Of a DNA stretch of 64,000 bases, positions 12,254 through 27,634 are shown one piece after another. Where the stretch lies: assembly GCA_021414225.1 (NCBI GenBank), contig JAIOOX010000002.1:97118-161117 (forward strand), in the 5' to 3' direction. This DNA comes from Candidatus Vogelbacteria bacterium. GTDB taxonomy: Bacteria; Patescibacteriota; Minisyncoccia; Phycocordibacterales; XYD1-FULL-46-19. How positions within the stretch are numbered: the first letter of the stretch is position 1; every line of letters begins with the position of its first letter. The translations under genes were made by a program, and so were the position numbers. The notes beneath the pieces were generated by a model. That model was given only the letters and a program-made list of their open reading frames with translations, ran no database searches and was not told where the DNA came from.

Positions 12254-12327
12254 TGCCAGATCGTCTAACGGTAGGACAGCAGCCTTTGAAGCTGTTTATC
12301 TAGGTTCGATTCCTAGTCTGGCAGCCA
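12254..12327 (+). tRNA. tRNA-Gln (anticodon UUG)
   Basis: Manual cloverleaf fold: acceptor TGCCAGA/TCTGGCA, D-arm GTCT-AACGGTA-GGAC, anticodon stem GCAGC/GCTGT with loop CTTTGAA (anticodon TTG), T-arm TAGGTTCGATTCCTA, discriminator G, and an encoded CCA. Confidence 0.85.
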
Positions 12328-12453
12328 GGAGTTTTTTAATAAAAAAAACGACACAGATGTCAGACTAGGAGAGAGGGGTCGGGAGAGAAAGTCTCTCCCG
12401 TGGAGGAAGGTATGGGAGAACCGTGGGTTCCCCAGCTCCGTATGTCTGGCAGC
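12316..12453 (+). repeat. 10-bp direct repeat GTCTGGCAGC (tRNA-Gln 3' end at 12316-12325 repeated at 12444-12453)
   Basis: An exact 10-mer copy of the tRNA 3' acceptor/T-arm junction lies ~120 bp downstream. The two copies flank a GC-rich hairpin-dense stretch (12340-12443). This is an att-like signature. Confidence 0.5.
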
Positions 12454-12608
12454 GAATATGAGCTAGCACGAGTTACCTAGGTAAACGTGCAGGTTTCTAA
12501 TCAAATTTTAGCCTCAGCTAATTTAGCTTATTGTGTTAAAATGGTTCAAATGAAAGTTGTTAAAAAGAAGAATATTGAAGATCTTACTAAAAAACAATAA
12601 ACATCATT

Positions 12609-12794
12609 ATGGAAAATCAAAACGATACTTATAAAGCAGAAGTTTACTGCGGTAACTGTGATTTAAGAGAGGAGATTAATATACTCAAAGGTCAAACTAT
12701 TAATGAAACAAAGTGTCCAAATTGTGGTACGTGTGAACTTGACAAAGATCATAAAGCGGTAACATTAAGACCCTATATTGAAAATTACAGGTAG
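12609..12794 (+). CDS. small zinc-ribbon protein (CxxC...CPNCGTC)
   Basis: 61-aa ORF with two CxxC pairs. It is the first gene of a tightly packed AT-rich operon: its stop lies 3 nt before the next start. Confidence 0.55.
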   Translation: MENQNDTYKAEVYCGNCDLREEINILKGQTINETKCPNCGTCELDKDHKAVTLRPYIENYR

Positions 12795-12797
12795 ATT

Positions 12798-13397
12798 ATG
12801 AACGATAATGACTTAATAAGAGAGAATATTTTAAAGTATCTTTATAAGATAAATAAAGAGGCTTCTATTATAGATAGAACAAGGTGTAATGAACGTCAGA
12901 TCTTTCTTAATTTGCAAGAAAAACATTCTCGGCCTGAGGTAGTAAGTAATCTGGATTATTTAATAAAGACAGGTTGGGTTAAATTAGAGAAGATTAATAA
13001 ATTACCGTATTATTCGATTAGTGATAAGGGGATCAATCATTTTGAAGGATCGTCATTTTTTCAAAAATCTCATTGGGTAACTGGAATAAATATAAACAAT
13101 ATTCAAGGTGTTACAGTTATAGGAGATCACAATTTTGTGCATCAGGAATTTGGTGATTTATATAAAAATTTGGATCTTTTGAAGGAGGAAGTTACTAAAT
13201 CAGGAACTATTTCTGATGAAGATAAGCTCGATTATCAATCAGAAATAGAGACTATTAAAAGCCAGCTGGCTAAAAAAGAACCCAATAAGAATATCATAAA
13301 ACAAGCTTGGGCTGGGTTATCAGTGCTATCAACTCTTGAAGGTGTCGTACAGTTTTACCAAATGGCTGAAGAATATATAGAGCCGTTTTTAACATAA
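12798..13397 (+). CDS. hypothetical protein, possible N-terminal winged-helix domain
   Basis: 199 aa. The N-terminal ~85 aa have a wHTH-like pattern (ENILKYLYKINKEASIIDRTRCNERQIFLNLQEKHSRPEVVSNLDYLIKTGWVKLEK) and the C-terminus is coiled-coil-like. No confident family assignment. Confidence 0.5.
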   Translation: MNDNDLIRENILKYLYKINKEASIIDRTRCNERQIFLNLQEKHSRPEVVSNLDYLIKTGWVKLEKINKLPYYSISDKGINHFEGSSFFQKSHWVTGININNIQGVTVIGDHNFVHQEFGDLYKNLDLLKEEVTKSGTISDEDKLDYQSEIETIKSQLAKKEPNKNIIKQAWAGLSVLSTLEGVVQFYQMAEEYIEPFLT

Positions 13398-13987
13398 TGG
13401 ATGGTGTAGGAAATATCAAAGAATACCAAATAGCAGGTTTACTGCGTGTTGCTAATGAGCAATTGGCATATTGTAATTTGATTACGGAGTATCCTGGGCT
13501 TTCTAGTAAAAAGAACTTTGATCCCTTGTCAGCTGTAGATCAGTTCTATAAAAGTGTCTGCAATGTATTTTTTCACGACAGCTTATTAATCATTAGCTCT
13601 TTGCTTGATAGTAAGGATTCTAGAGTGATTGGGCTTTGGAATTGGAAAGACTTTACTAGTTATAAATCTTCTGAATTGAAACTCATAACAGATTCATTTA
13701 ATAATGGACCATTAAAAACAATAAGAGATCAGTTAATTGCTCATCAAGATGTAAGTAACCCTAATAATCAATTTCCAGATTCTAGAAGGACAGGAATTAT
13801 AAAGGAAAACCTTATCATGCTAGCTCAAAGCACCCTTGATAGCATTATTAATGAGTTTTGTGATTATGCACAAAAATTTAGTACCCCGTATAGTGAACAG
13901 TATTTTGATACAGAGGAAGCAAAAAATCAGCTAACCTCAGTAATGAGATTAGCTGTACCAACTCTAACTAATAATGATGTTATTTAA
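13397..13987 (+). CDS. hypothetical protein with possible HEPN-like Rx(4-6)H motif
   Basis: 196 aa. Its start overlaps the upstream stop (ATAATGG). It contains TIRDQLIAHQD, which fits the HEPN RNase signature Rx4-6H. This is a motif-level observation only. Confidence 0.5.
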   Translation: MDGVGNIKEYQIAGLLRVANEQLAYCNLITEYPGLSSKKNFDPLSAVDQFYKSVCNVFFHDSLLIISSLLDSKDSRVIGLWNWKDFTSYKSSELKLITDSFNNGPLKTIRDQLIAHQDVSNPNNQFPDSRRTGIIKENLIMLAQSTLDSIINEFCDYAQKFSTPYSEQYFDTEEAKNQLTSVMRLAVPTLTNNDVI

Positions 13988-14065
13988 AAAAGTTTCATAA
14001 TGTTTCACTTTTTAACGAGTATTAGATCTGTTGTTTTAGCAAGGGTATAGGAAATGATATAATTC

Positions 14066-14093
14066 AATGAATAATGAATAATGAATAATGAAA
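14066..14093 (+). repeat. tandem heptamer AATGAAT x3.5 spanning the start codon region
   Basis: AATGAAT AATGAAT AATGAAT AATGAAA. Each unit carries an ATG. The first two open 4-codon mini-ORFs (MNNE-stop) and the third is the ORF start at 14081. Confidence 0.8.
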
Positions 14094-14713
14094 AGGATTT
14101 GGGAGATCTTAACTCTACAATCGAGACCGGATACGTCAAAATATCCAAGCATGGGAATGCTCGACTCGCTAATCTCCAGGATGCCATTAGCTCTACAACA
14201 AAAGAACTCTTAGCTGTCTATTCAAATGATATGCGTAATTTAGGAATTGTGGCTGGTACGGTCGCGCCTTTTTCGCTCACTTTACTTGGAGCGAATCAAT
14301 TCGATATAAACAATTTAGCTTTAATGTTTGGATTTTCTTTTCTGCTTTATGCGATCATCTTATCTCAATTTTTTTTATTTAGACTTTCAGATGCTTATGA
14401 ACACAGAACGAGTCGAGCTGAAATTAGTTGGGTATTTGCACAATTTGGTCTTTGGCAAATGGAGGATGTTAACAATGACTCAACTAAACGAATAAATGGA
14501 ATGTTTGATTACCAAAAGAGGACCCGAGAGGTGGAGGGTCATCTTGGTCTAAACAACACTCCATCTCCACACCTCCTGGTTTTAAGAAAGAAACTACGTT
14601 CCTATAACCTAATTACGTTACTTCTCGTTACTTCTGGGATTATTCTAATCTTGGGATCGGTTGTAATAAACCCAATTTCTGCTTGGATAATCATAAACGT
14701 TTATAATCCATAG
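14081..14713 (+). CDS. hypothetical membrane protein (2-3 TM)
   Basis: 210-aa ORF. The hydrophobic segments are VAGTVAPFSLTLLGA, FGFSFLLYAIILSQFFLF and LITLLLVTSGIILILGSVVI. It is the last gene of the AT-rich cassette. Confidence 0.5.
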   Translation: MNNEKDLGDLNSTIETGYVKISKHGNARLANLQDAISSTTKELLAVYSNDMRNLGIVAGTVAPFSLTLLGANQFDINNLALMFGFSFLLYAIILSQFFLFRLSDAYEHRTSRAEISWVFAQFGLWQMEDVNNDSTKRINGMFDYQKRTREVEGHLGLNNTPSPHLLVLRKKLRSYNLITLLLVTSGIILILGSVVINPISAWIIINVYNP

Positions 14714-14864
14714 TGAACGAGACGCGTCGTTCCGATAAGCTAAACGAAGTAAGTGGGGCTTGATCGAAAACGGTTCTAGCTCGAGAAGGTCAGCCAACTT
14801 GAGATAGGTTCGGAGTCCGAGAAGTATTACAACTTTCTTGTGGATGAGTGTTATAATGCCAAAC

Positions 14865-15767
14865 ATGAAAAAGATAGCTATTACAGGTAATTTCCCCTTT
14901 ACTGAAGAGCAAAAGTCACGATTGGAAGCACTTGGAGAAGTTTCAACCGTCTCCAGTTTTTCTTCGTCAGAAGAATGGCTTTCATCTGTACAAGGTGCAG
15001 ATGTTATCCTGAGTGATGGTAGTTATCTTCTAGAAAATCTCTCAAATCTCAAGAATGTTTTTATAACATACCCATATATCGAACTTGGCGCATTCGATTC
15101 AGAGAAACTAAAAGCTAACGGAGTTGTGGTCGCTAATACCCAAGGAAGTAATCGTGACTCGATTATTGAATGGACTATGTTTATGATACTTTCGCTTTTT
15201 CGTAAGTTTCCGACATATTTAAATACTGCACAAAGTCACGAGTTCACTCTTAATCAAAGCTTGGCTGGAAAGAGAGTTCTTGTTGTTGGTAAAGGCAGTA
15301 TCGGTACTGGGATCGGTGAAGTCTGTCAGGGTTTTAAGATGGAAGTTGATTACTTTACGAGACAAGACGATTTAAAAACAAAGGCTGCTAATGCGGACTT
15401 GATTATCAATGCTCTTAATTGCAATTCCTCAAGCAAGAATCTACTAGATGAAGAATTTTTTATGTCATTGAAAAAAGGTAGTTATTATGTTTCCTTTGTT
15501 CGAGGATATACTTATGACATCGACGGAATGATCAGGTCGCTTGATTCGGACATTCTCGTTGGTGCTGGAATAGACTGCGATCCGGAAGATCCCTACGATG
15601 TAACAAATGCGTTCTATCAAAAGTGTGTCCAGCATAGAAAGATATTAGTTACACCTCATATTGCTTTTGCTACAAAAGAGGCAAGCGCGCAGGGGAGAGA
15701 AATAGCGATACAAAATATCGAAGCATATATTTCAGAAAAACCTCAAAACATTCTTACTAAAATTTAA
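14865..15767 (+). CDS. D-isomer-specific 2-hydroxyacid dehydrogenase family protein
   Basis: NAD-binding GKRVLVVGKGSIGTGIG Rossmann motif and the C-terminal catalytic region (VTPHIAF). The ORF track begins at 14838; the ATG at 14865 (MKKIAITG) is more plausible. Confidence 0.7.
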   Translation: MKKIAITGNFPFTEEQKSRLEALGEVSTVSSFSSSEEWLSSVQGADVILSDGSYLLENLSNLKNVFITYPYIELGAFDSEKLKANGVVVANTQGSNRDSIIEWTMFMILSLFRKFPTYLNTAQSHEFTLNQSLAGKRVLVVGKGSIGTGIGEVCQGFKMEVDYFTRQDDLKTKAANADLIINALNCNSSSKNLLDEEFFMSLKKGSYYVSFVRGYTYDIDGMIRSLDSDILVGAGIDCDPEDPYDVTNAFYQKCVQHRKILVTPHIAFATKEASAQGREIAIQNIEAYISEKPQNILTKI

Positions 15768-15787
15768 ATGAGAATTGCTCTATAGCT

Positions 15788-16198
15788 ATGAAAATCCTAT
15801 TTATCTGTCGTGGTAACGTGGGCCGGAGCCAAATAGCCGAAACCTTGGCTAAGTCTTTATTAGATGATAAACATATTATTACCTCAGCCGGAACTAAGCT
15901 GAGTGGCCCAGAACAGCCTATTGGAGAGTTGTCGCCCTCTACTGATAATGTTATTGAAGTGATGAAAGAAGAAGGTTTTGATGTGACTGGCAATCTACGG
16001 AAGCAGGTCACGGAAGAAATGGCAGAGGATGCTGACAAAATAATTTTGGTGGTAGATGACGATGATCCAATTCCAAACTACCTACTCAATAATCCCAAAG
16101 TCACTCGTTGGGATGTCCAAGATCCAAAAGGTCAGACACTTGAATTTACTCGCAATGTTAGAGATCAAATTAAAAGTAAGATAACCTCGTTAATTTAA
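15788..16198 (+). CDS. low-molecular-weight protein-tyrosine phosphatase / ArsC-family protein
   Basis: N-terminal CX5R P-loop (ILFICRGNVGRSQIAE) and a distal DP motif, as in LMW-PTP/ArsC. Confidence 0.75.
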   Translation: MKILFICRGNVGRSQIAETLAKSLLDDKHIITSAGTKLSGPEQPIGELSPSTDNVIEVMKEEGFDVTGNLRKQVTEEMAEDADKIILVVDDDDPIPNYLLNNPKVTRWDVQDPKGQTLEFTRNVRDQIKSKITSLI

Positions 16199-16200
16199 CT

Positions 16201-16572
16201 ATGGACAAAAAACCAGGCCGAACAGTTGCGTTTGATTTTGATGGAGTTATTGCAAATTACTCGGGCTTCAAAGGCAAAGATCATGCTGAAGAACCAATTG
16301 GAGAAACTATCAAGGCAATCAAACTGCTTAAAGAAAAAGAATTTAAAATTCTCCTCCATTCAACGCGCGGGGATGATTTTTTGCGCAATTATTGCACACA
16401 ATACGATATTCCTTTTGATTACATTAATCGAAGACCCGACAAAGAAGGGGACAACCCTGGTAAACCAATAGCGTATGTCTATGTAGATGATCGATCTATA
16501 TGCTTTAAGGGTCAGAAAGCTGAAGAGCTAGTGGAAGAGATTGATAACTTTAAAGCCTATTGGGAGGAATAA
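16201..16572 (+). CDS. HAD-superfamily phosphatase-like small protein
   Basis: HAD motif I DxDG(V/T) in VAFDFDGVIANYS. It may be a truncated form at 123 aa. Confidence 0.45.
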   Translation: MDKKPGRTVAFDFDGVIANYSGFKGKDHAEEPIGETIKAIKLLKEKEFKILLHSTRGDDFLRNYCTQYDIPFDYINRRPDKEGDNPGKPIAYVYVDDRSICFKGQKAEELVEEIDNFKAYWEE

Positions 16573-16692
16573 TAAAAATATACGAAGACTCATTGAATAT
16601 GTAAACTAACCCCAGTTCTAATTTTTTCTTTAAATAAACGTTTGTGATCGAAAATCCCGAGTTGTTTGGGGTGCTTATGGAGAAACTGTAAT

Positions 16693-16740
16693 GCCGCTTC
16701 TACCGACAGGCAAAAGTCGGGGAGGCGGCTTTTGTTGTTA
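16693..16740 (+). terminator. compound GC hairpin plus T-rich tract
   Basis: GCCGCTTC-TACCGAC-AGGCAAAA-GTCGGG-GAGGCGGC followed by TTTTGTTGTT. It lies at the left edge of the high-GC island, upstream of the lysA-like gene. Confidence 0.45.
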
Positions 16741-16848
16741 ATATTTACTTTACCTAAAAATGTGGTAGAAATATATCCGGACGCCAAGGTATGTATGCCT
16801 TGGTATTTTTGGAAACTAGAGGACCTTGAAAGAGGAGGATTTAGACAG

Positions 16849-18111
16849 ATGCCTATGTCAAAGGCGTTCGAGGACAGGCTACACCCTGATCTTCGAAAAA
16901 TCGCCGATCACTTCGGCACCCCCTTCCACATCTATGATGAGGCGGGGATCAAGGGGACTGGCAAACGCCTTAAACAAGCATTTGCGAATCTCCCGTCAGG
17001 TTTTGGGGAGTTTTTTGCGGTGAAGGCCCTGCCCAATCCGCGCATTCTCCAGATCATGTACGAAATGGGTTTCGGGTTTGACTGCAGCAGTATTCCCGAA
17101 CTTGTTTTGGCTCGCGAAGCCGGAGCCATGCCCGGTCAGATCATGTTCACGTCAAACAATACTTCGCAAGAAGAGTTTGACGCGGCTATGGCTGACGGCG
17201 GTTGCCGGCTCAATCTCGACGATATCAGCTTCATTTCGAAAGTACCGGAACCTTTTCCTCGCGGAATCTGTTTCCGGTACAACCCCGGCGAAAAGCGAAC
17301 CGGCAATGCCATCATCGGTAATCCGGTGGAGGCGAAGTATGGCGTGTCCGATGTCCAAATCGTGGACGCCTACGGCCAAGCCATTCTTCGGGGAGCCGAA
17401 TGCTTCGGGTTGCACACCATGCTCTGCTCGAACGAACGGAACTACACCTATATGGTGGAAACTATCAAGATGTTGCTCGAACTGGTCGAGCGGATCAGCT
17501 TGGCCCACAAGATCAAGTTCGACTACATCAATTTCGGCGGCGGTCTGGGAATACCCTATCGCCCCGAAGATAACCCGCTCGATCTAGAATCATTGGGCAA
17601 CGAAGCCTTTGGTTTGTTGGAAGCTTTCAAGCAGAAGCATGGCTACGCGCCGGAGTTGTGTATGGAAAGTGGTCGGTTTATGACCGGCCCTCACGGTGTT
17701 TTGGTGGCTGAAGCGATCAATCGCAAATCCACCTATCGTGAGTATGTCGGTGTCGATGCTTGCCAAACGGCACTCATGCGCCCGGCCCTCTACGATGCCT
17801 ATCACCACATCACAGTGCTTAATGGCGATGGCCGCCCCACTGAAGTGGTGGACATTGTCGGAGCCATCTGCGAAAACTGCGACAAGTTCGCCAAGCAACG
17901 CGAACTGCCGGTCATCAGCGAGGGTGATCTGCTGATGATCCACGACACTGGGGCTCATGGTCTGGCTATGGGCTTCAACTACAACGGTCGCTTGCGGCCG
18001 AAGGAACTTTTGCTTCGATCTGATGGAACGGTGGAACTCATCCGCCGAGCCGAAACCATTGACGATCTTTTCGCAACCTTAACCTTCGAACCCGAAAGCT
18101 TGGCGCTTTAA
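16849..18111 (+). CDS. lysA: diaminopimelate decarboxylase-like PLP enzyme (Orn/DAP/Arg decarboxylase family 2)
   Basis: An AGAGGAGGA Shine-Dalgarno precedes the ATG at 16849 (MPMSKAF...). Motifs include FAVKALPNP (PLP-lysine), GFGFDCSSIPEL, GGGLGIPY, ESGRFMTGPHG and DTGAHGLAMGFNYN. GC is ~58%, against ~40% in the flanks. Confidence 0.8.
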   Translation: MPMSKAFEDRLHPDLRKIADHFGTPFHIYDEAGIKGTGKRLKQAFANLPSGFGEFFAVKALPNPRILQIMYEMGFGFDCSSIPELVLAREAGAMPGQIMFTSNNTSQEEFDAAMADGGCRLNLDDISFISKVPEPFPRGICFRYNPGEKRTGNAIIGNPVEAKYGVSDVQIVDAYGQAILRGAECFGLHTMLCSNERNYTYMVETIKMLLELVERISLAHKIKFDYINFGGGLGIPYRPEDNPLDLESLGNEAFGLLEAFKQKHGYAPELCMESGRFMTGPHGVLVAEAINRKSTYREYVGVDACQTALMRPALYDAYHHITVLNGDGRPTEVVDIVGAICENCDKFAKQRELPVISEGDLLMIHDTGAHGLAMGFNYNGRLRPKELLLRSDGTVELIRRAETIDDLFATLTFEPESLAL

Positions 18112-18137
18112 CGCCAGGAAAAAGTGAGGAATCTGAA

Positions 18138-19346
18138 ATGTTGAGACCACGCATTCAGACTGGAGCAAACCTGTTCCAGTTGATCAAGGCCATCTGCCGT
18201 GAGGCGGAAGAAGAGGGGAAGCAGCTTTTTCGGCTGTCCATCGGACAACCGACGGGGCCGGCTTTCCTCTCGGCCAGAGTCAAAGCGGCCGAACTCATCA
18301 TGAGCGACGAGGAGAAGTGGCATGAGTACCAGGACAACGGCTGTGTGATTCCGAATTTCGCTCAGCGTTTCGTGCAAGCTCATGTGCCGACAACTCGTTT
18401 CGACCAGTTCGGCGAACGGCTGGCCTATCTCCCGATTCCCGGCATCAAGTCGATGCTGGAGATTGTGATCATGGCTTGTCTTCATGGTTTGCCGCCAATG
18501 GAGAAGCCGCTCCGGGTGTACACCACAACCAAACCGGGGTATCCCACTCCGGCGGATCAGTGCCGTTATCTGGAGGACAACGGGGCGCAAGTGCGTCATC
18601 AAGCGCTGGAGACTAATCCCGGAAATCAGTTCCGTTTCGATCCGGAAGATCTCAACGTGATCGGGTCAAGTTTGGTCATGACCAATTACCCGAGCAATCC
18701 GACCGGGCAAGTCGCTTCGCGGGAGTATTGGAAAGCCCTCTGCGCCTACTGCGAACTTTATGGCTTGCGACTGTTCAACGACGCCGCCTACGCGGCGCTG
18801 CCTCACACCAATGAGCACTGTACCCTGGCGGCGGTGGCGGTGGATTACCCGAACCTGTCCTGGATCGAAGCCTACTCCGGTTCCAAGATAGGCAACTTCA
18901 CTGGTTGGCGAGTCGGCGCAATGGTCGGTTCGGCCGATTTCATTGCCGACGTGGCCAATGTGAAAGGCAACAGTGACAGTGGCTTCAACGCAGCGTTGGC
19001 TGGTGGAATTCTGCACGTTCTGGAACATGATCGGGAGTCGCTGGATGCGACGCGACGGCTGTACACCGGACGGACAGAACTCCTCACCAACGTCCTTCAG
19101 GAGTATGGTTTGGAGTTGGCTGTCCAACCTCAAGCCGGGTTCTTCACTCTGTGGCAGTGTCCGAAACGCGCCTTCGGTCAGGTGATTGAAAACTCCGAGG
19201 AGTTCAATCGTCTGATGATCATGAAAACGGGTATTGTTGGTGTTCACTTCAATCCGTACATGCGCTACGCGGTGTGCGGCGATGTGGAAGCGATGATCGG
19301 CCCGATCACTGAGGGCTTCAAGGAAGCCAACGTCAGCTACAAGTAA
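18138..19346 (+). CDS. dapL: class I/II PLP aminotransferase, LL-diaminopimelate aminotransferase-like
   Basis: Block-by-block similarity to the DapL family: LSIGQPTGP, KPGYPTPAD, TNYPSNPTGQVA, SGSKIGNFTGWRVGAMVGS (PLP-Lys), NVKGNSDSGFNAALA, QAGFFTLWQCP. A GTGAGGAA RBS sits 27 nt after the lysA-like stop and the high GC continues. Confidence 0.7.
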   Translation: MLRPRIQTGANLFQLIKAICREAEEEGKQLFRLSIGQPTGPAFLSARVKAAELIMSDEEKWHEYQDNGCVIPNFAQRFVQAHVPTTRFDQFGERLAYLPIPGIKSMLEIVIMACLHGLPPMEKPLRVYTTTKPGYPTPADQCRYLEDNGAQVRHQALETNPGNQFRFDPEDLNVIGSSLVMTNYPSNPTGQVASREYWKALCAYCELYGLRLFNDAAYAALPHTNEHCTLAAVAVDYPNLSWIEAYSGSKIGNFTGWRVGAMVGSADFIADVANVKGNSDSGFNAALAGGILHVLEHDRESLDATRRLYTGRTELLTNVLQEYGLELAVQPQAGFFTLWQCPKRAFGQVIENSEEFNRLMIMKTGIVGVHFNPYMRYAVCGDVEAMIGPITEGFKEANVSYK

Positions 19347-19368
19347 TACTCCTTTTGGTTCCAAAAAC

Positions 19369-19408
19369 GGTCTGCGAGTCCTTTCAGGATTCGCAGACCT
19401 TTCTTTTT
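19369..19408 (+). terminator. rho-independent terminator (13-bp stem)
   Basis: GGTCTGCGAGTCC-tttca-GGATTCGCAGACC followed by TTTCTTTTT, immediately after the dapL-like stop at the right edge of the high-GC island. Confidence 0.8.
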
Positions 19409-19494
19409 ATATAAAATATTTATTCAAAATTAGGATAGTTAAATAATATTATTAGTTTGCCCCAAAAACCCCTGTGCGGTAAAGTGTAAACACA

Positions 19495-19566
19495 TGGAAA
19501 CTAAACTATTAATATTTGATCTCGATGGAGTAATCTTTGATTCAATCAAAGTGGTTGAGGATTAAT
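19495..19566 (+). pseudogene. remnant of a HAD-IA hydrolase N-terminus (23 codons)
   Basis: Encodes METKLLIFDLDGVIFDSIKVVED-stop, the canonical HAD motif-I N-terminus, with nothing downstream. It is flanked by 9-bp direct repeats of GTAAACACA at ~19481 and ~19639. Confidence 0.5.
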
Positions 19567-19678
19567 TACAAAGGGGGTTAAAATTTTCTAACTAAGTTTT
19601 GTGGGGGTAAATTTATCGCCCTTGCCACGTGTTAGTAAACACAGTAAAGTAGAATCATTAATATTTTACTAGATTTTT

Positions 19679-20080
19679 ATGTTGAATGAATTTAAAACCT
19701 TTCTCTTAAGAGGAAATGTAGTTGATCTGGCTGTCGGTGTCGTGATTGGTGCTGCTTTTGGAACAATTGTCACGGCTTTGGTGTCTGATCTTCTGACTCC
19801 ACTGATTGCCGCTATTGCTAAAGTGCCAGATTTTAGTGGTCTTTATTTTACCTTAAACGGTAGTCAGTTTATGTATGGTCATTTTATTAATACCCTCATT
19901 TCATTTTTGTTGGTAGCTGGCTCAGTCTTCTTCTTTGTGGTGAAGCCGATGAATGTGCTTATTGCTAAGTCTCGTAAAGAACCATCAGTTGATCCAACAA
20001 CCAAGAAATGCAAAGAGTGTTTAAGTGAAATTCCACTTGAAGCTAAGCGTTGTTCGCATTGTGCTCAGGCGGTAGTTTAA
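19679..20080 (+). CDS. mscL: large-conductance mechanosensitive channel MscL with C-terminal CxxC...CxxC extension
   Basis: MLNEFKTFLLRGNVVDLAVGVVIGAAFGTIV is the hallmark MscL N-terminus/TM1. The C-terminal tail CKECLSEIPLEAKRCSHC forms a zinc-ribbon-like addition. Confidence 0.85.
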   Translation: MLNEFKTFLLRGNVVDLAVGVVIGAAFGTIVTALVSDLLTPLIAAIAKVPDFSGLYFTLNGSQFMYGHFINTLISFLLVAGSVFFFVVKPMNVLIAKSRKEPSVDPTTKKCKECLSEIPLEAKRCSHCAQAVV

Positions 20081-20111
20081 ATTTTTAGTAGGATTTTAAA
20101 TAACTATTCTA

Positions 20112-20573
20112 ATGCGCTCCACCCCAAAACTAATTTTTGAAACTGATAATTTCCAAGTGATTACTCTGGGTAACCCACACTTGAGTCGAACTGATGGTGG
20201 TCATTTGATTATCGATCCTAAAGTGCCAGTCGAAGATCGAACCAAACTAAGTCTAGAGTTAGCTAAAGAATTGATAATGCTAACCATGGTGGCGGGTGAG
20301 GCTATGAAAATTGGTTTAGCAAAAAATGGTATAGACCTAGGCCGAATTAACTACCAAGACAATGGTAACTGGAGGCACGAGTTGCATATTCATCTGTACG
20401 GTCGAGCCAAGGGAGCGACTAATCAACAATATGGCTGGGCTTTAAGATTTCCTCTGACCGCTGAGGCTTTCGAACAAGAGGTGGGCCAACTAGAGCCACT
20501 AACTGATCAAGATATTGTCGATATTCAGACGGAAATTAAAAGGCTGTTGCAGACAGAGAAGTATTTACATTAA
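20112..20573 (+). CDS. HIT-family (histidine triad)-like protein
   Basis: FETDNF...GGHLIIDPK...HELHIHLYGR matches the HIT fold pattern with a variant triad. Confidence 0.5.
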   Translation: MRSTPKLIFETDNFQVITLGNPHLSRTDGGHLIIDPKVPVEDRTKLSLELAKELIMLTMVAGEAMKIGLAKNGIDLGRINYQDNGNWRHELHIHLYGRAKGATNQQYGWALRFPLTAEAFEQEVGQLEPLTDQDIVDIQTEIKRLLQTEKYLH

Positions 20574-20641
20574 ACAAGATTAGAGAGGTTGGCGCCTCAC
20601 TGATAGTCAAAAATTTTACAAATTAGTATAATGACATCAAT

Positions 20642-21097
20642 ATGAAAGAAACAATGCATTTTGAGATAGTAATAAACACACCCGTACAAAAGGTATGGAA
20701 TACGATGTTAGAGTTAGAAACGTACAAAGAGTGGACTAGTGTTTTTGAGCCAACTTCTTACTACGAAGGTTCTTGGGACAAGGGAAGTAAAATAAAATTT
20801 TTGGGATCCGGTGGATCGGGGATGGTATCAGAAATAGCTGAAAATGTTCCGTATGAATTTGTTTCCATTAAACATCTAGGAGAAATGAAAAATGGGGTAG
20901 AAGACACCACTAGTGAAGCTGTGAAGAAGTGGCTTCCAGCTTTTGAGAACTATACTTTCACTGACAAAGGCGTAGAAACTTTACTGGCCATAGATATGGA
21001 GATGGAATCAAGTCCGGAATCTCAAGCGATGAAAGAAATGTTTGAAGGAATGTGGCCCAAAGCCCTTTTAAAGCTAAAGGAAATATGCGAACGATAA
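20642..21097 (+). CDS. SRPBCC/AHSA1-like domain protein
   Basis: 151-aa ORF. The N-terminus VINTPVQKVWNTMLELETYKEWT is typical of activator-of-Hsp90-ATPase/polyketide-cyclase-like SRPBCC proteins. Confidence 0.5.
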   Translation: MKETMHFEIVINTPVQKVWNTMLELETYKEWTSVFEPTSYYEGSWDKGSKIKFLGSGGSGMVSEIAENVPYEFVSIKHLGEMKNGVEDTTSEAVKKWLPAFENYTFTDKGVETLLAIDMEMESSPESQAMKEMFEGMWPKALLKLKEICER

Positions 21098-21495
21098 AAA
21101 ATGAACTATCGATTGAGATTCAAAAATATAACCAAAACTTATCTAAAAAAGATAAAGACGTGTGTGATGTACTAGCGGCAGAGATAACCCTAAATCTTCC
21201 AAACGCAGAAAATAAAATCTGGCACGCTAATCCCGTTTGGTTTTTAGACGGCAATCCAATTGTTGGCTATGATAGGTTGAAAGATTGTGTCCGGCTTCTT
21301 TTCTGGAGTGGACAATCTTTTGATGAGGAGGATTTACTTAAATCAGGTAGCTTTAAGGCGGCTGAAATTAGATACACAGATGTGGTGCAAATCAATAAGA
21401 AGAACCTAAAACGCTGGTTGAAAAAGGCTAAAGAGATACAGTGGGATTATAAAAATATAGTCAAAAGGAAAGGGGTGCTAAAAAAGATTACATAG
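21085..21495 (+). CDS. hypothetical protein
   Basis: The ORF track starts at 21052, inside the previous gene. The ATG at 21085 (MRTIKNEL...) gives a minimal overlap. No family assignment is possible. Confidence 0.4.
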   Translation: MRTIKNELSIEIQKYNQNLSKKDKDVCDVLAAEITLNLPNAENKIWHANPVWFLDGNPIVGYDRLKDCVRLLFWSGQSFDEEDLLKSGSFKAAEIRYTDVVQINKKNLKRWLKKAKEIQWDYKNIVKRKGVLKKIT

Positions 21496-21576
21496 AAATT
21501 TCTTTATACTCGTCAGGTGGGAGTTGTCTTTTTAAGTGCTATAATCTAATTAATTAGTAGTTTTAATAAAAATATT

Positions 21577-21996
21577 ATGTTTCCATTCAGTTTACTTAGT
21601 GTTTTAGTAGCAGCTATCGTGGCTTTTGTGATCGGTTTTCTATTACACGGTCCGATCGGAGGGAAATTGTGGATGAAACTCGCCGATATTCATCCGACAG
21701 GGAAGGAAAAGTTTGCCGATATGATTCCGCAAATGTTATGGAACCTTTTGGCTAACTTTGTGACTGCTTTTGTGATGGCGGGTATTATTTGGGCTGTGTC
21801 TACATCACCGGTCATGGGTCAGATGACAGCGTCTCGAGGTGCTATTTTTGGTATTTGGCTAGCGGTTGGTTTCTTGGCTACTTCATCGTCAATGGATGTT
21901 ATTTGGATGGGTAAAAATTATAAATTATGGCTGTATGAGGTTGGCTGCTCAATATTAATGATGGCGGCTATGGGTGCGATTTTGGCAGCTTGGTAA
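21577..21996 (+). CDS. DUF1761-like small membrane protein (paralog of 27181..27591)
   Basis: The N-terminus [23 protein letters not shown] mirrors VIGFVWYGPLFGKLWLKV in the ORF at 27181, so the two are a paralogous pair. Confidence 0.55.
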
Positions 21997-22268
21997 AAAT
22001 AAAGCTAATTAATAAATATTTTGTGACCCATTTTGTTTACATTTTAGAATGTGCAGATGGGTCACTTTATGTTGGCTGTACTAACAATCTCGAAAAAAGA
22101 TTACATCAACATAATAACTCTAAATCAGGGGCTCATTACACGAAGGTGCGTCGGCCGGTGGTGTTAAGATACCAAGAAGAGTTGGCTACTTTGGCTGAAG
22201 GTCGAAAACGAGAGGCGGAAATAAAGAGTTGGAAAAGGGAAAAGAAATTGGGTTTGTTTTGTGACTGA
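21990..22268 (+). CDS. GIY-YIG nuclease-family protein (UPF0213-like)
   Basis: [28 protein letters not shown]...EAEIKSW is the GIY-YIG/YhbQ-like signature. Confidence 0.7.
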
Positions 22269-22299
22269 TGAATTCATAAAATATCCAGGCATTTACTTT

Positions 22300-22560
22300 T
22301 TAATAATATGATGTATTATATTGGACTGGTTCACATCGCCGGGCTGGGTAAGGCCACAGTCCGGTACAGACTTCAACCCTCGGTCTAGAACGAGGCGATT
22401 GACGAGAAGATTAGCCCGAGCCAGTACGGTCAAAAGCTAGTCCAATCGGTGTGAATTCTGGTCAGGTTGTCTGCCTGTGTCAGATGCAACGAATCCGTTT
22501 TACGGGTCTCGCCATAGTCTATGGGCGCCTCGACGATGTCGAGGCGCCCGTTTCTTTTTT
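22300..22560 (+). ncRNA. candidate structured non-coding RNA (~230-260 nt), class unassigned
   Basis: A GC-rich non-coding block in a ~40% GC region with no plausible ORF. It has a promoter-like TAATAT just upstream. TTGGACTGG near the start (within 22310-22325) could pair with CTAGTCCAA ~120 nt downstream. There are internal hairpins (e.g. CCTCG-GTCTAGAA-CGAGG). It ends in a perfect 12-bp stem plus a T-tract at 22523-22560. Confidence 0.4.
22523..22560 (+). terminator. rho-independent terminator
   Basis: GGGCGCCTCGAC-gatg-GTCGAGGCGCCC followed by TTTCTTTTTT. Confidence 0.8.
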
Positions 22561-22585
22561 CCGTGATATTATTTTTACTTAGATT

Positions 22586-23149
22586 ATGGAATATATCATT
22601 AAGAAAAACCGACTAGCCAAAAATTTACGAATCACTGTTCGATCTGATGGTTCGGTGTTGGTGACAGTGCCTTGGCGAGTGCCTCTTAGGCTGGCCGAAA
22701 AGTTTGTCGCTGATAAGCAGGATTGGATTAAACGTCAGGTGGAGATCAGTCATAATCGTCTGGCTGAGGCTGAAAAACTTGGTTTGCCCAAGAGGCTAAC
22801 TCCAACAGAAAAGAAAAAACACTATCTTAGTCACAAAGAACAGGTCCGGAAAAATATTGTTAAACGAGTGGCAGAGTTAAATGAAAATTATGGTTTTAAA
22901 TATGGTGCCATTTCGATTCGTAATCAGAGCACTCGCTGGGGTAGTTGTTCGAAGAAGGGGAATTTAAATTTTAATTATAAAGTGGGTTTATTGCCTCAAT
23001 CTTTATCTGATTACGTTATCGTTCACGAATTGTGTCATTTAAAAGAATTTAATCATTCATCTCGGTTTTGGCTTTTGGTTGCCGAAACAATACCCGATTA
23101 TTTAGTACTCAGACGAGAATTGCAAAGAAAGGGTCTTGTGTTGTCCTAA
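22586..23149 (+). CDS. YgjP-like metal-dependent hydrolase (DUF45/M48-like, HExxH)
   Basis: C-terminal zinc-binding motif VIVHELCHLKEFNHSSRFW, typical of the YgjP/UTP pyrophosphatase family. Confidence 0.7.
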   Translation: MEYIIKKNRLAKNLRITVRSDGSVLVTVPWRVPLRLAEKFVADKQDWIKRQVEISHNRLAEAEKLGLPKRLTPTEKKKHYLSHKEQVRKNIVKRVAELNENYGFKYGAISIRNQSTRWGSCSKKGNLNFNYKVGLLPQSLSDYVIVHELCHLKEFNHSSRFWLLVAETIPDYLVLRRELQRKGLVLS

Positions 23150-23193
23150 AAAAGGAATAAAATCAAGACTAATTATTAAATTGCAAAATATAT

Positions 23194-23718
23194 ATGTCAT
23201 CACAAGTAAAGATAGTAGCTTTGGTTTTGGTGGGTCTGGTGGTAGTAGGTGGTGGTTACTTTATTTTTAAATCAAATCAGACGGTTGGTTTGGTTAATGA
23301 GTCAGAAACTATCACTAAGGCGGGTGATAGTAAGAAAATTCCTTTTTCGGAATTTATTAAAATCGGCGGTTCTTACAAATGTACTATCAACCAATCGATT
23401 GGAGGAGTCGATACCCAAGGCTTAACTTATCTGAACAACAAAATGATCAGAGGAGAATATAATACCAAAGTCCAAGGGGTGAGTATTGATACCACCTTGA
23501 TTGTGCGTGATGGTTTTACTTACACCTGGACGTCTATGGCCCCAACTATGGGTTTCAAAGCTAAGGTGGCAGATCAAAAAGTAGTCGATAATCAAACAGG
23601 AACGTCTGGAACCTACTCATTTAACGCTGAGCAGATTGGAGATTATGATTGCCAGACTTGGAATTCAGATGATTCTAAATTTGTTTTACCAACTGGGGTA
23701 ACTTTCCGCGAGGTTTAA
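23194..23718 (+). CDS. hypothetical secreted/membrane-anchored protein
   Basis: N-terminal signal anchor VALVLVGLVVVGGGYFIF and a Thr/Gly-rich body. Confidence 0.45.
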   Translation: MSSQVKIVALVLVGLVVVGGGYFIFKSNQTVGLVNESETITKAGDSKKIPFSEFIKIGGSYKCTINQSIGGVDTQGLTYLNNKMIRGEYNTKVQGVSIDTTLIVRDGFTYTWTSMAPTMGFKAKVADQKVVDNQTGTSGTYSFNAEQIGDYDCQTWNSDDSKFVLPTGVTFREV

Positions 23719-23720
23719 TT

Positions 23721-24116
23721 ATGAATATTATTATTTACTTAGTCACCTTGGTGACGTTGGCTGTGTTTGATGGTATTTGGTTATCACTGATGGTCTCTAA
23801 CTATAAAGGTTGGCTTGGCCACTTGTTTGCGTCGACAGTTAGTTTTACGCCGGTTGTTATTTTCTACTTGATTTATACCTTAGGAGTTTCTTTGTTTGTT
23901 GTTTCTCCTGGTTTGAAACAGGGTTCTAGTTTGGTCTGGATTTTTGTCATGGGGGCTTTATTTGGTCTCGTGGCTTACGCTACTTATGATTTGACGAACC
24001 AGGCTACTTTGAAAGATTGGCCCCTAGTCGTCACTTTAGTTGATTTGGCGTGGGGATCATTTTTTACAGGAGCCGCCAGTGTGGTGGTGGTCTCTATCAT
24101 CAACTACTTCAAATAA
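23721..24116 (+). CDS. hypothetical membrane protein (DUF2177-like)
   Basis: 131 aa with 4 predicted TM helices. Confidence 0.45.
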   Translation: MNIIIYLVTLVTLAVFDGIWLSLMVSNYKGWLGHLFASTVSFTPVVIFYLIYTLGVSLFVVSPGLKQGSSLVWIFVMGALFGLVAYATYDLTNQATLKDWPLVVTLVDLAWGSFFTGAASVVVVSIINYFK

Positions 24117-24186
24117 ATTAGGTATTATTGTCTTAGTCGTATATACTCCGTCCAGTCGCCTTAGCAGACTTAATGAAAATATTGTT

Positions 24187-24303
24187 ATGTCAGATGAAAC
24201 AACAACTACAACTACTACAGTTACCCCAGCTGAAGTAGAGACCGAAGTAGAGACAACTGTGGGTGAACCAGAAGTAGAAGTAGAAACAGAGACAAAAGAA
24301 TAA
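24187..24303 (+). CDS. small acidic Thr/Glu-rich peptide (38 aa)
   Basis: MSDETTTTTTTVTPAEVETEVETTVGEPEVEVETETKE. The ORF-track ORF at 24040 is an overlapping out-of-frame extension. A CACCC...GGGTG hairpin plus T-run follows. Confidence 0.3.
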   Translation: MSDETTTTTTTVTPAEVETEVETTVGEPEVEVETETKE

Positions 24304-24446
24304 GTTTTGTCTAAGTAAAAGCACCCTTGGAGTAATCTGGGGGTGTTTTTCGGTTAAATTTGCTTATTGGCCAGAAAAAGCGTACACTTTACAATATAAT
24401 AATAACAACTTGTCTAGGCAGGTAAGTAACTAATACAAATAACTAT

Positions 24447-25004: not shown

Positions 25005-25024
25005 CTTAATTAAGGATAACTATT

Positions 25025-26497: not shown

Positions 26498-26544
26498 CTC
26501 GGTTGAGCCATATTTTAGATTAAAAAATATGTTATAATAAGGTT

Positions 26545-27168: not shown

Positions 27169-27180
27169 TAATTAATTTTT

Positions 27181-27591: not shown

Positions 27592-27634
27592 TTTGGCAGT
27601 CTGGATTGAGGATGATATAGTAGGTGGTAATATT

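What the first reader, a model, noticed from the sequence alone, without database searches (positions are those of the whole stretch)
16640..19410. High-GC (~58%) two-gene island encoding DapL-like aminotransferase and LysA-like decarboxylase
Between 16.8 and 19.35 kb, GC jumps from ~40% to ~58% and codon usage shifts to GC3-rich codons. The ORF track shows long antisense ORFs there, typical of high-GC DNA. The two genes are an Orn/DAP/Arg-family decarboxylase (FAVKALPNP, ESGRFMTGPHG) and a class-I aminotransferase with block similarity to LL-diaminopimelate aminotransferase. Together they would form the terminal segment of the DapL-type lysine/meso-DAP route. The island starts after a compound hairpin at 16693-16740 and ends with a 13-bp-stem terminator at 19369-19408. 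A 23-codon HAD-hydrolase N-terminal remnant sits just beyond. This looks like a recent horizontal acquisition from a high-GC donor into a reduced genome that otherwise appears to carry little biosynthesis.
Basis: partly seen in the sequence, partly recalled or inferred. Interest (0 to 1): 0.65.

Follow-up and report, generated by a model that had tools for sequence, protein, structure and literature searches.

The report
Foreign lysA–aminotransferase operon in Vogelbacteria
A small-genome Candidatus Vogelbacteria bacterium carries a two-gene, compositionally foreign operon (diaminopimelate decarboxylase plus an uncharacterised DapL-like aminotransferase), one copy of a cassette found in many candidate-phyla-radiation (CPR) bacteria; it is a clear but fairly ordinary case of horizontal gene transfer.

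Summary
Two co-oriented genes, lysA-like (16849-18111) and a class-I aminotransferase (18138-19346), have 54-56% GC and GC3 of 0.64-0.68. The host background is 40% GC and GC3 0.36. Their dinucleotide and tetranucleotide signatures fall outside every other 2.5-kb window. Strong hairpins flank them, and a 23-codon HAD fragment follows.

Horizontal acquisition is well supported:
- An independent assembly reproduces both junctions.
- A sister strain (about 93-99% nucleotide identity) lacks the genes at this locus; its homology resumes at 19582.
- No variant of the aminotransferase at 90% identity or more exists in the protein database.

The pair is not an oddity from a "high-GC taxon". lysA sits directly beside this aminotransferase in 25 CPR-type loci (Falkow-, Wolfe-, Taylor-, Moran-, Woyke-, Vogelbacteria, CPR2), sometimes with dapB, and the cassette is often GC3-richer than its host. 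The nearest relatives of both genes are on CPR-like contigs. Only LysA has Desulfuromonadota as its next-nearest group.

LysA is credible. The aminotransferase scores far below every DapL threshold, and its DAP role rests on gene context alone. No dapA, dapB or dapF lies in the window.

Verdict: a real island, a new member of a known kind, of moderate interest.

The parts
12798..19581 (.). Strain-specific segment that contains the island. It has no counterpart in the ~93-99%-identical sister strain, whose homology with the window starts at 19582.
   Evidence: blastn of L173 and L175 against the window: matches at 19582-20567 and 22006-30201 only. The sister strain carries GrpB, Cu-ATPase fragments and Thoeris genes upstream of mscL. 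Genes at 12798-21577 have no homologues within 10 kb of the ABC-F gene in 80 related loci, apart from mscL in two.
16693..16739 (+). Intrinsic-terminator-like hairpin plus T-run, closing the upstream host genes. It marks the left edge of the island region.
   Evidence: dG -24.9 kcal/mol, z -4.5, 0 of 200 shuffles as good; also found by the terminator scan.
16783..16804 (+). 9-bp hairpin followed by ATTTTTGG in the lysA leader, 45 nt before the start codon. Possible attenuator; unproven.
   Evidence: Terminator-like scan. The whole-leader fold is not unusual, z -1.7. No Rfam match.
16830..16840 (+). Ribosome-binding site AAGAGGAGGAT for lysA.
   Evidence: Read from the sequence.
16849..18111 (+). 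lysA-like diaminopimelate decarboxylase, 420 aa, GC 53.8%, GC3 0.637.
   Evidence: Pfam Orn_Arg_deC_N and Orn_DAP_Arg_deC. TIGR01048 lysA 291.3 bits against a cutoff of 297.9. The best PDB matches are all LysA. Catalytic motifs are conserved. NCBI names the identical protein diaminopimelate decarboxylase.
18138..19346 (+). Class-I PLP aminotransferase of an uncharacterised DapL-like family, 402 aa, GC 56.2%, GC3 0.680. Preceded by the RBS GTGAGGA.
   Evidence: Pfam Aminotran_1_2. Best NCBIfam match is DapL PRK06290 at 120.8 bits against a cutoff of 585. Family alignment A1 has invariant residues K250, N187, D215, Y218, R258, R376 and K104. AlphaFold model pLDDT 91.5.
19369..19409 (+). Operon terminator: a 14-bp G+C-rich stem followed by TTTCTTTTT.
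   Evidence: dG -25.6 kcal/mol, z -6.7, 0 of 200 shuffles as good; terminator scan.
19496..19567 (+). 23-codon HAD-hydrolase N-terminal fragment (DLDGV motif I) in AT-rich, host-like DNA. It lies in the strain-specific segment, 15 nt before the sister-strain homology breakpoint.
   Evidence: Translation METKLLIFDLDGVIFDSIKVVED*, with no continuation in any frame. Local GC is 0.27-0.30.
19679..20080 (+). mscL, the first host gene shared with the sister strains.
   Evidence: Pfam MscL; blastn at 88.7% identity over 19582-20567.

Best explanation
The 2.5-kb segment is a horizontally acquired two-gene operon, lysA followed by a DapL-like class-I aminotransferase. It sits in a strain-variable region of a Candidatus Vogelbacteria genome.

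It is one copy of a lysA-aminotransferase cassette, sometimes joined by dapB, that occurs in many Patescibacteria (CPR) lineages and appears to move between them. The immediate donor was most likely another, GC-richer bacterium carrying this cassette. That donor was probably a patescibacterium rather than a classical high-GC phylum.

The operon is transcribed from the AT-rich leader after the host terminator at 16693-16739 and ends at the 19369-19399 hairpin.

Function is inferred, not shown. LysA decarboxylates meso-diaminopimelate to L-lysine. The aminotransferase most likely handles the neighbouring DAP-pathway step, tetrahydrodipicolinate to LL-DAP with glutamate as donor. Together they would give an otherwise auxotrophic cell access to lysine and DAP.
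For: **Foreign composition.**
- GC3 is 0.64 and 0.68 against 0.36 +/- 0.08 for host genes.
- delta* is 131 against 50 +/- 17; TETRA r is 0.02 against 0.55 +/- 0.10.
- The codon shift goes to both C- and G-ending codons.

**Not an assembly artefact.** Logan contig L084 matches the window over 17,077 bp with 0 mismatches and spans both junctions.

**Strain-specific.**
- Sister-strain contigs L173 and L175 have GrpB upstream of mscL instead. Homology starts at 19582.
- The 90%-identity cluster of the aminotransferase has a single member, although the sister strain's proteins are in the same database.
- None of 80 related loci has lysA or the aminotransferase near the conserved ABC-F gene.

**Incongruence with the host.** Against L001 the island proteins are 75% and 61% identical, while the one shared host protein (YibE/F) is 33% identical. 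Another Vogelbacteria contig, L038, carries a pair only 58% and 51% identical.

**Cassette nature.**
- lysA is directly adjacent to this aminotransferase in 25 of 77 loci, all CPR-type. No other neighbour is conserved.
- GC3 of the two genes correlates across loci, r = 0.95.
- 9 of 25 CPR cassettes exceed their flanks by more than 0.15 in GC3, against 1 of 40 non-CPR loci.

**DAP link.** dapB lies beside the aminotransferase in L002, L034 and L043.

**LysA is credible.** All catalytic motifs are present. TIGR01048 scores 291 bits, with close relatives at 300 and 309.

**Published context.** Most HGT into Patescibacteria comes from other Patescibacteria (PMC12455944).
Against: - No donor or near-identical copy was found. 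The best matches are 67% (aminotransferase) and 75% (LysA), so the direction and date of transfer are inferred only.
- No integrase, tRNA target or convincing flanking repeat is present.
- The sister strain differs over a much larger segment than the island, so the island's own insertion is not isolated.
- The aminotransferase scores about one fifth of the DapL HMM cutoffs. It is not closer to solved DapL than to AspAT or BacF.
- In non-CPR lineages the same family sits beside SDR, amidohydrolase and Rieske genes, not DAP genes.
- No dapA, dapB or dapF lies in the 64-kb window.
- A small GC3 excess of about +0.05 is seen for this gene even in non-CPR genomes, so part of the excess may be intrinsic to the gene.
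- Pairwise identities of the aminotransferase and LysA correlate only weakly across loci, r = 0.25.
Confidence: 0.7

Rival explanations
1. One reading: the pair was acquired directly and recently from a classical high-GC, non-CPR donor such as Desulfuromonadota/Thermodesulfobacteriota, as the end of a DapL-type lysine pathway.
For: After two or three CPR-like sequences, the next-best LysA hits are Geothermobacter, Desulfuromonas and other Thermodesulfobacteriota at 65-69% identity. The window clade is sister to them in an NJ tree. Island GC3 implies a source genome of roughly 52-58% GC (inference).
Against: - The aminotransferase has no close Desulfuromonadota relative. Its nearest neighbours and the tree backbone are CPR.
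- The Geothermobacter lysA is a solitary gene with GC3 0.91 and no adjacent aminotransferase.
- The lysA-aminotransferase arrangement itself is seen only in CPR-type loci.
- The closest copy of the pair, L001, is in a small-genome contig of about 47% GC.
Confidence: 0.15
2. A functional rival, compatible with HGT. The operon is a salvage or nitrogen-shuffling module, not a biosynthetic pathway end. LysA turns meso-DAP scavenged from host peptidoglycan into lysine, and the aminotransferase is a general Asp/Glu/aromatic-type transaminase with no THDP/LL-DAP activity.
For: - No dapA, dapB or dapF lies in the window, and most cassettes lack them nearby.
- The aminotransferase is far below the DapL cutoffs. 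By sequence profile it is nearest to 2x5d, BacF and AspATs.
- The Lys that binds the distal carboxylate in class-Ib AspATs appears conserved as K104 (by my own motif reading).
- In non-CPR genomes the family sits in catabolic contexts.
- A stand-alone lysA acquired by phagotrophic ciliates has been listed under amino-acid degradation, alongside transferred peptidoglycan and amino-sugar degradation genes (PMC13198582).
Against: - dapB, whose product is the DapL substrate, sits next to the aminotransferase in three independent loci. In L002 this is without lysA.
- The top three NCBIfam hits are all DapL models, 25-40 bits above other transaminase families.
- IMG labels many family members LL-DAP aminotransferase.
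Confidence: 0.3
3. The genes are native and vertically inherited. Their GC-rich codons reflect selection, for example high expression, rather than foreign origin.
For: The aminotransferase is slightly GC3-richer than its flanks in most genomes, including non-CPR ones (median +0.05, 33 of 40 positive). 24 of 25 CPR cassettes are also positive.
Against: - The excess here is +0.335, the largest seen.
- It includes G-ending codons and a changed dinucleotide and tetranucleotide signature.
- The genes are absent from the locus in a 93-99%-identical strain, and no 90% variant exists.
- Between cassettes about 50% identical at the protein level, synonymous sites must be saturated. A GC3 excess therefore cannot be an ancient leftover (inference).
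Confidence: 0.07
4. Assembly chimera or contamination: reads from a GC-richer organism were joined into the Vogelbacteria contig.
For: Both GC boundaries are sharp, and coverage could not be examined.
Against: - Two assemblies, the 409-kb NCBI MAG contig and a 31.9-kb Logan contig, agree base for base across both junctions.
- The boundaries coincide with a terminator, an RBS and a terminator, not with arbitrary breakpoints.
- The same gene pair is embedded in CPR contigs from dozens of unrelated samples, often with a similar GC excess.
Confidence: 0.03

Closest known systems
Diaminopimelate decarboxylase LysA (EC 4.1.1.20; NCBIfam TIGR01048), especially the 'GAHG...NYNGRLRP / CENxD' subgroup of Desulfuromonadota/Thermodesulfobacteriota (e.g. 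Geothermobacter ehrlichii, 69% identity)
   Same: Two-domain fold-type-III PLP decarboxylase. The PLP lysine (AVKA), GGGxGIPY, ExGR, RPxxY..YHH, CExxD and NYNxRxRP motifs are all present. The best solved relatives are all LysA, E 1e-50 to 1e-35.
   Different: It scores 291.3 bits, just under the 297.9 equivalog cutoff, while its relatives score 300-309. Tyr is replaced by His in the GAY motif throughout the subgroup. Here the gene is fused into an operon with an aminotransferase, which the Geothermobacter gene is not.
LL-diaminopimelate aminotransferase DapL (EC 2.6.1.83; NCBIfam PRK06290, PRK09276, TIGR03540)
   Same: Class-I PLP aminotransferase of about 400 aa. DapL models are its three best NCBIfam matches. 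It is genomically tied to lysA in 25 loci and to dapB in 3.
   Different: It scores 106-121 bits against cutoffs of 507-593. Solved plant DapL chains are absent from sequence and profile hits at E <= 1e-8 (only the paralogue ALD1 appears, at 4e-9) and rank 26th or lower by fold. The family has its own invariant motifs (HEYQDN, NYP[HS]NP[ST]GQ). Non-CPR members lie in non-DAP contexts.
Class-Ib aminotransferases with solved structures: P. aeruginosa 'probable aminotransferase' 2X5D, B. subtilis BacF 6L1L, Thermus/Thermotoga AspAT
   Same: These are the best sequence-profile and fold matches (profile E 2e-29 to 1e-18; TM 0.70-0.83). The canonical PLP-binding residues are conserved.
   Different: Identity is only 17-21%. 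None of them is linked to lysA, and substrate specificity cannot be transferred.
Horizontally acquired genes and genomic islands in Patescibacteria (PMC12455944)
   Same: A compositionally deviant segment in a variable region of a streamlined genome. The likely donor is within Patescibacteria, as in 109 of 130 events in that study.
   Different: That study found amino-acid-biosynthesis genes to be rarely transferred into Patescibacteria (11 HT and 18 GI genes) and does not mention lysine or DAP. Here the cargo is exactly such a pair, and the same cassette recurs across CPR classes.

Membership tests
LysA (diaminopimelate decarboxylase) | Orn/DAP/Arg decarboxylase architecture: TIM-barrel PLP domain plus C-terminal beta-sheet domain | tested here: met
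   PF02784 at 99.8 bits and PF00278 at 69.6 bits.
LysA (diaminopimelate decarboxylase) | Score at or above the TIGR01048 equivalog cutoff (297.9 bits) | tested here: inconclusive
   291.3 bits, 6.6 below the cutoff. The closest relatives, P0122 and P0124, score 309.1 and 299.7.
LysA (diaminopimelate decarboxylase) | Catalytic and substrate motifs: PLP-Lys, GGG loop, E-x-G-R, R-P-x-x-Y, C-E-x-x-D, NYN-x-R-x-RP | tested here: met
   Aligned residue by residue to T. maritima, A. aeolicus and M. jannaschii LysA and conserved across the subgroup. The only change is Tyr to His in GAY.
LysA (diaminopimelate decarboxylase) | meso-DAP decarboxylase activity | not testable with these tools
   Needs an enzyme assay or complementation of an E. 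coli lysA mutant.
DapL (LL-diaminopimelate aminotransferase) | Class I/II aminotransferase fold with the Schiff-base lysine and PLP-binding Asn/Asp/Tyr/Arg | tested here: met
   PF00155 at 84.5 bits. N187, D215, Y218, K250, R258 and R376 are invariant in A1. Confident model, pLDDT 91.5.
DapL (LL-diaminopimelate aminotransferase) | Score above a curated DapL model cutoff (PRK06290 585, PRK09276 507, TIGR03540 593) | tested here: not met
   120.8, 107.9 and 106.0 bits. Relatives P0002 and P0003 score similarly.
DapL (LL-diaminopimelate aminotransferase) | Closer to experimentally characterised DapL than to other transaminases | tested here: not met
   No DapL chain among the phmmer or profile hits at E <= 1e-5 and 1e-8. 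Arabidopsis DapL ranks 26-44 by Foldseek, with TM 0.71-0.75, like many AspATs.
DapL (LL-diaminopimelate aminotransferase) | Genomic association with DAP/lysine pathway genes | tested here: met
   lysA is adjacent in 25 loci. dapB is adjacent in L002, L034 and L043.
DapL (LL-diaminopimelate aminotransferase) | The rest of the pathway (asd, dapA, dapB, dapF) is present in the same genome | tested here: inconclusive
   None in the 64-kb window.
DapL (LL-diaminopimelate aminotransferase) | THDP + Glu to LL-DAP + 2-OG activity; DapL-specific substrate residues | not tested
   No reference DapL sequence or coordinates were available for residue mapping, and activity needs an experiment.
Horizontally acquired genomic island | Composition deviates from the host beyond GC alone | tested here: met
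   delta* 131 against a maximum of 101; TETRA r 0.02 against a minimum of 0.30; GC3 z of 5-6.
Horizontally acquired genomic island | Absent from the same locus in close relatives | tested here: met
   L173 and L175 (85-99% nt identity in shared parts) have GrpB before mscL. The protein cluster is a singleton. Caveat: the non-homologous segment is larger than the island.
Horizontally acquired genomic island | Phylogenetic incongruence with host genes | tested here: met
   Against L001 the island proteins are 75% and 61% identical, while host YibE/F is 33%. The Vogelbacteria L038 pair is only 58% and 51% identical. Based on NJ trees and a single host marker.
Horizontally acquired genomic island | Mobility hallmarks: integrase or transposase, tRNA target, direct repeats | tested here: not met
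   No such genes in 12-30 kb. The nearest tRNA is at 12254. Only a 9-nt inverted repeat, matched by 88 of 2000 shuffles. No plasmid or phage relative.

The most novel reading that the evidence does not exclude
The aminotransferase may represent a third, non-orthologous type of LL-diaminopimelate aminotransferase, or another DAP-forming transaminase. Together with LysA, and sometimes DapB, it would form a compact 'lysine/DAP cassette' that is repeatedly exchanged among CPR lineages. This would explain why the cassette is so often GC3-richer than its host. It would also intermittently free these episymbionts from dependence on the host for lysine and for the peptidoglycan diamino acid.
Probability: 0.3. 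Interest if true: 0.6.

Novelty: new member of a known kind. Interest (0 to 1): 0.38.

Why it matters
Patescibacteria are thought to lack amino-acid biosynthesis and to depend on hosts. Here a lysine/DAP gene pair recurs across CPR classes, sits in variable genome regions and often still carries a foreign codon signature. That pattern suggests this capacity is traded horizontally rather than simply lost.

The aminotransferase family has at least 288 loci in species-level genomes and no characterised member. It is a concrete, testable candidate for a missing or alternative DAP-pathway step in CPR, Dehalococcoidia and marine Alphaproteobacteria.

For this particular window the result is modest: a clean, well-bounded HGT example.

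Tried and rejected
- **Riboswitch or leader RNA.** Rfam found nothing at the gathering threshold over the whole window, nor at E <= 1 over 16.5-19.75 kb. The leader fold is not unusual.
- **Mobile-element signatures.** There are no integrase or transposase genes. The flanking 18-nt imperfect inverted repeat reduces to an exact 9-mer that 88 of 2000 shuffles equal, so I treat it as chance.
- **Plasmid or phage vector.** The best plasmid tblastn hit is 26% identical, and phage blastn found nothing.
- **Empty-site search with the flanking 2-hydroxyacid dehydrogenase.** The first metagenome scan found nothing. Relatives at 73-78% identity are not syntenic.
- **Eighty loci around the ABC-F gene.** They show only that 12.8-22 kb is lineage-specific.
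- **Exact look-up of the 842-aa ClpB-like protein.** Not on record.
- **Structure route to substrate specificity.** The model is confident, but Foldseek ranks BacF, prephenate AT, AspAT and DapL within the same narrow band. The afdb50 library was unavailable.
- **Peptidoglycan diamino acid from a MurE motif in relative L091.** The gene turned out to be MurF-like and was uninformative.
- **Congruence of aminotransferase and LysA histories.** Pairwise-identity correlation is weak (r = 0.25), because aminotransferase identities saturate at about 50-57%.
- **Literature.** I found no paper on a CPR lysA-aminotransferase cassette or a CPR DapL.

Full report
**Origin of the window.** The two island proteins and their neighbours are identical to proteins of an NCBI MAG labelled Candidatus Vogelbacteria bacterium. 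The contig is 409,485 bp and the accessions are MCE9628598-MCE9628607. The window is about 40.8% GC. It encodes a typical small-genome repertoire: tRNA synthetases, UvrABC, Ddl, DprA, a ClpB-like ATPase, a two-component system, and ZIP and YibE/F transporters.

**Checking the observation.** The compositional jump is real and sharply bounded.
- In 200-nt windows GC is 0.50-0.605 from about 16.8 to 19.4 kb and 0.27-0.44 on either side.
- The region holds two co-oriented genes. A decarboxylase spans 16849-18111: 420 aa, starting at an ATG nine bases after the RBS AAGAGGAGGA. The longer TTG-initiated ORF from 16666 is an artefact of ORF listing. An aminotransferase spans 18138-19346, 402 aa.
- Their GC is 53.8% and 56.2% and their GC3 0.637 and 0.680. 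The other window genes average GC3 0.361 +/- 0.078.
- The shift is not only GC. The dinucleotide relative-abundance distance to the rest of the window is 131 (x1000), while 114 background 2.5-kb windows give 50 +/- 17 with a maximum of 101.
- The tetranucleotide z-score correlation is 0.02, against 0.55 +/- 0.10 with a minimum of 0.30.
- Codon use moves to both C- and G-ending codons, such as CTG, CCG, GCG, CGG and ATC.
Each is followed by a T-run.
- The 23-codon HAD motif-I fragment is present at 19496-19567.
- Corrections are minor: GC is about 55%, not 58%, and the decarboxylase comes first.

**Is it an artefact?** A Logan assembly of run SRR15633504 (31.9-kb contig, L084) is identical to window 12270-29346 with no mismatch. 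It spans both GC boundaries. The boundaries coincide with functional punctuation: terminator, RBS, terminator. The same gene pair is embedded in CPR contigs from many unrelated samples. I rate a chimera as very unlikely, although read depth could not be examined.

**What the genes are.**
- *Decarboxylase.* It has the two Orn/DAP/Arg decarboxylase domains. Its best solved relatives are all LysA, with E 2e-50 for T. maritima. It keeps every catalytic motif in residue-by-residue alignment. It scores 291.3 bits on TIGR01048, just under the 297.9 cutoff, while its nearest relatives score 300-309. I accept it as a diaminopimelate decarboxylase of a distinct 'GAH / CENxD' subgroup.
- *Aminotransferase.* It is a bona fide class-I PLP enzyme: PF00155, invariant K250/N187/D215/Y218/R258/R376, AlphaFold pLDDT 91.5. 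Its three best NCBIfam hits are DapL models, but at 106-121 bits against cutoffs of 507-593.
- By sequence profile and by fold it is no closer to solved DapL than to AspAT, BacF or the P. aeruginosa 2X5D protein. It therefore fails membership of DapL as currently defined.

**The family and its contexts.** Scanning one genome per species found 288 loci encoding relatives 47-67% identical.
- They fall into two groups. One is CPR/Patescibacteria: Falkow-, Wolfe-, Taylor-, Moran-, Curtiss-, Woyke- and Vogelbacteria, CPR2, and 'Saccharibacteria' TPA bins.
- The other is a set of higher-GC lineages: Dehalococcoidia, marine Alphaproteobacteria, Entotheonella and Planctomycetota. In an NJ tree these nest within the CPR diversity.
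- In 25 of 77 analysed loci, all CPR-type, lysA is the immediate neighbour: 20 times upstream, 5 times downstream. No other neighbour is conserved.
- dapB lies beside the aminotransferase in L002 (without lysA), L034 and L043.
- In the non-CPR genomes the neighbours are short-chain dehydrogenases, amidohydrolases and Rieske oxygenases.
- The DAP/lysine assignment of the aminotransferase therefore rests on guilt by association within CPR. That evidence is real but indirect.
- The 64-kb window has no dapA, dapB or dapF. The rest of the genome could not be searched.

**Evidence for horizontal acquisition.**
1. The foreign composition described above.
2. A sister strain from JGI metagenome 3300056999 (contig Ga0558716_03534) is 93-99% identical in nucleotides and about 98.5% in proteins. 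It aligns with the window only from 19582 rightwards, 97 nt before mscL. Upstream it carries GrpB, copper-ATPase fragments and a Thoeris system instead. An NCBI contig (L175) shows the same GrpB-mscL arrangement.
3. The aminotransferase's 90%-identity cluster contains only the window protein, although proteins of the sister strain are in the same database.
4. None of 80 related loci (ABC-F protein 70-83% identical) has lysA or the aminotransferase within 10 kb. Window genes from 12.8 to 21.6 kb have no counterparts there, except mscL in two loci. The island therefore lies in a variable zone.
5. The closest copy of the pair is L001, at 75% (LysA) and 61% (aminotransferase). It sits in a genome whose one shared host protein is only 33% identical. 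Another Vogelbacteria contig, L038, has a pair only 58% and 51% identical.

No mobility genes, tRNA target or convincing repeats were found, and no plasmid or phage relatives. The mechanism of insertion is therefore unknown. Homologous recombination in flanking DNA is my inference.

This is only half true.
- *LysA.* After three CPR-like sequences (75%, 72% and one more), the next hits are Geothermobacter, Desulfuromonas and other Thermodesulfobacteriota at 65-69%. The window clade is their sister in an NJ tree. However, the Geothermobacter gene is solitary and has GC3 0.91.
- *Aminotransferase.* All near neighbours are CPR.
- *The wider pattern.* The cassette is GC3-richer than its flanks in 24 of 25 CPR loci, by more than 0.15 in 9 of them. 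Examples: L043 0.71/0.71 against 0.38; L038 0.64/0.66 against 0.44; L034, a three-gene aminotransferase-lysA-dapB island; L086 55% against 42% GC. Only 1 of 40 non-CPR loci exceeds 0.15, and the non-CPR median is +0.05. The window is the most extreme case, at +0.335.
- GC3 of the two genes is tightly correlated across loci, r = 0.95.
- Cassettes that are about 50% identical in protein must be saturated at synonymous sites. A GC3 excess therefore cannot be an old inheritance. Each GC-rich copy must have lived recently in a GC-richer genome, or be under unusual selection (inference).
- The simplest reading is repeated transfer of a cassette among CPR, and perhaps other, lineages. This agrees with a published survey in which 109 of 130 HGT events into Patescibacteria came from other Patescibacteria and amino-acid-biosynthesis cargo was rare (PMC12455944).
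- The immediate donor is unsampled.

**How it probably works.**
- The host operon upstream ends at the 16693-16739 terminator.
- Transcription of the island starts in the AT-rich 110-nt leader. The leader contains a small hairpin with a T-run at 16783-16804, of unknown significance.
- Both genes are translated from good Shine-Dalgarno sites, and transcription stops at 19369-19409.
- LysA converts meso-DAP to L-lysine (shown by homology).
- The aminotransferase most likely interconverts tetrahydrodipicolinate and LL-DAP using Glu/2-OG (inferred from context; probability about 0.45). The main alternative is a general transaminase in a DAP-salvage operon (about 0.3). Stand-alone lysA has been listed under amino-acid degradation, alongside transferred peptidoglycan and amino-sugar degradation genes, in ciliates (PMC13198582).
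- An epimerase (dapF) would still be needed between the two steps. None was seen.

**Verdict.** The feature is a genuine, well-delimited horizontally acquired lysA-aminotransferase operon, a new member of a known kind. The more interesting by-product is the uncharacterised aminotransferase family and the recurrent, compositionally 'young' lysine/DAP cassette across CPR, which deserves an enzymatic test.

Noticed in passing
window 63400-64000: A second GC-rich patch (0.56-0.63 against about 0.40) at the window edge. ORF 63495-63950 (-) encodes an Ala/Glu/Gln-rich protein with GC3 0.70 and no Pfam match. It may be another foreign segment running off the window.
   Followed up: partly
window 41293-42118 (gene 41404-42096): An adenylate-kinase-like gene with GC3 0.55. 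This ~0.8-kb stretch does not align with the sister strain (L092 11182-11932), although both flanks do at 94-96%. It looks like a small replaced segment.
   Followed up: partly
window 57666-59081 (-): A second Orn/Arg/DAP-decarboxylase-fold gene with host-like GC. Its best NCBIfam match is biosynthetic arginine decarboxylase at 201 bits (cutoff 369); lysA scores 156. It is not a second LysA and may be polyamine-related.
   Followed up: partly
L173 1-9470 (sister strain), replacing window <=19581: The sister strain carries a Thoeris defence system (ThsA_Macro plus two ThsB_TIR), an S24 peptidase, a CsoR-like repressor, fragmented HMA/P-type ATPase genes and GrpB where the window has its 12.8-19.6-kb segment. 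This is a defence and accessory hot spot next to mscL.
   Followed up: no
window 20568-22005: Three small genes (SRPBCC/AHSA1, DUF1801, DUF1761) lie between the HIT-family gene and the GIY-YIG gene. They are absent from all three sister-strain contigs (L173, L174, L175), where HIT is followed directly by GIY-YIG. This is a second indel, of host-like GC.
   Followed up: partly
window 16806-16814 and 19359-19367: An exact 9-nt inverted repeat, TTTTTGGAA / TTCCAAAAA (18 nt at 83% when extended), brackets the two genes just outside the RBS and the stop codon. 88 of 2000 shuffles of the flanks do as well, so it is probably chance.
   Followed up: yes
L034 7956-11666; L043 5456-9188; L086 8633-11191; L088 2819-4000; L038 6682-9173: Other CPR contigs carry the same aminotransferase, with lysA and sometimes dapB, as GC3-rich islets in low-GC genomes. 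Examples: L034 0.65/0.54/0.54 against ~0.35; L043 0.71/0.71 against 0.38; L088 49.5% against 32% GC. The window is not unique.
   Followed up: partly
window 19486-19517 and 19635-19666: A 32-nt direct repeat (72% identity, GTAAACAC...TTAATATTT). One copy overlaps the start of the HAD fragment and the other lies just upstream of mscL, on either side of the sister-strain homology breakpoint at 19582. They may be duplicated promoter DNA or a recombination scar.
   Followed up: no
P0364/P0366 (3,052-bp JGI/Logan contig): Copies at 90% identity or more of the LMWPc phosphatase and the 123-aa gene immediately left of the island exist on a short contig from another sample.
   Followed up: no
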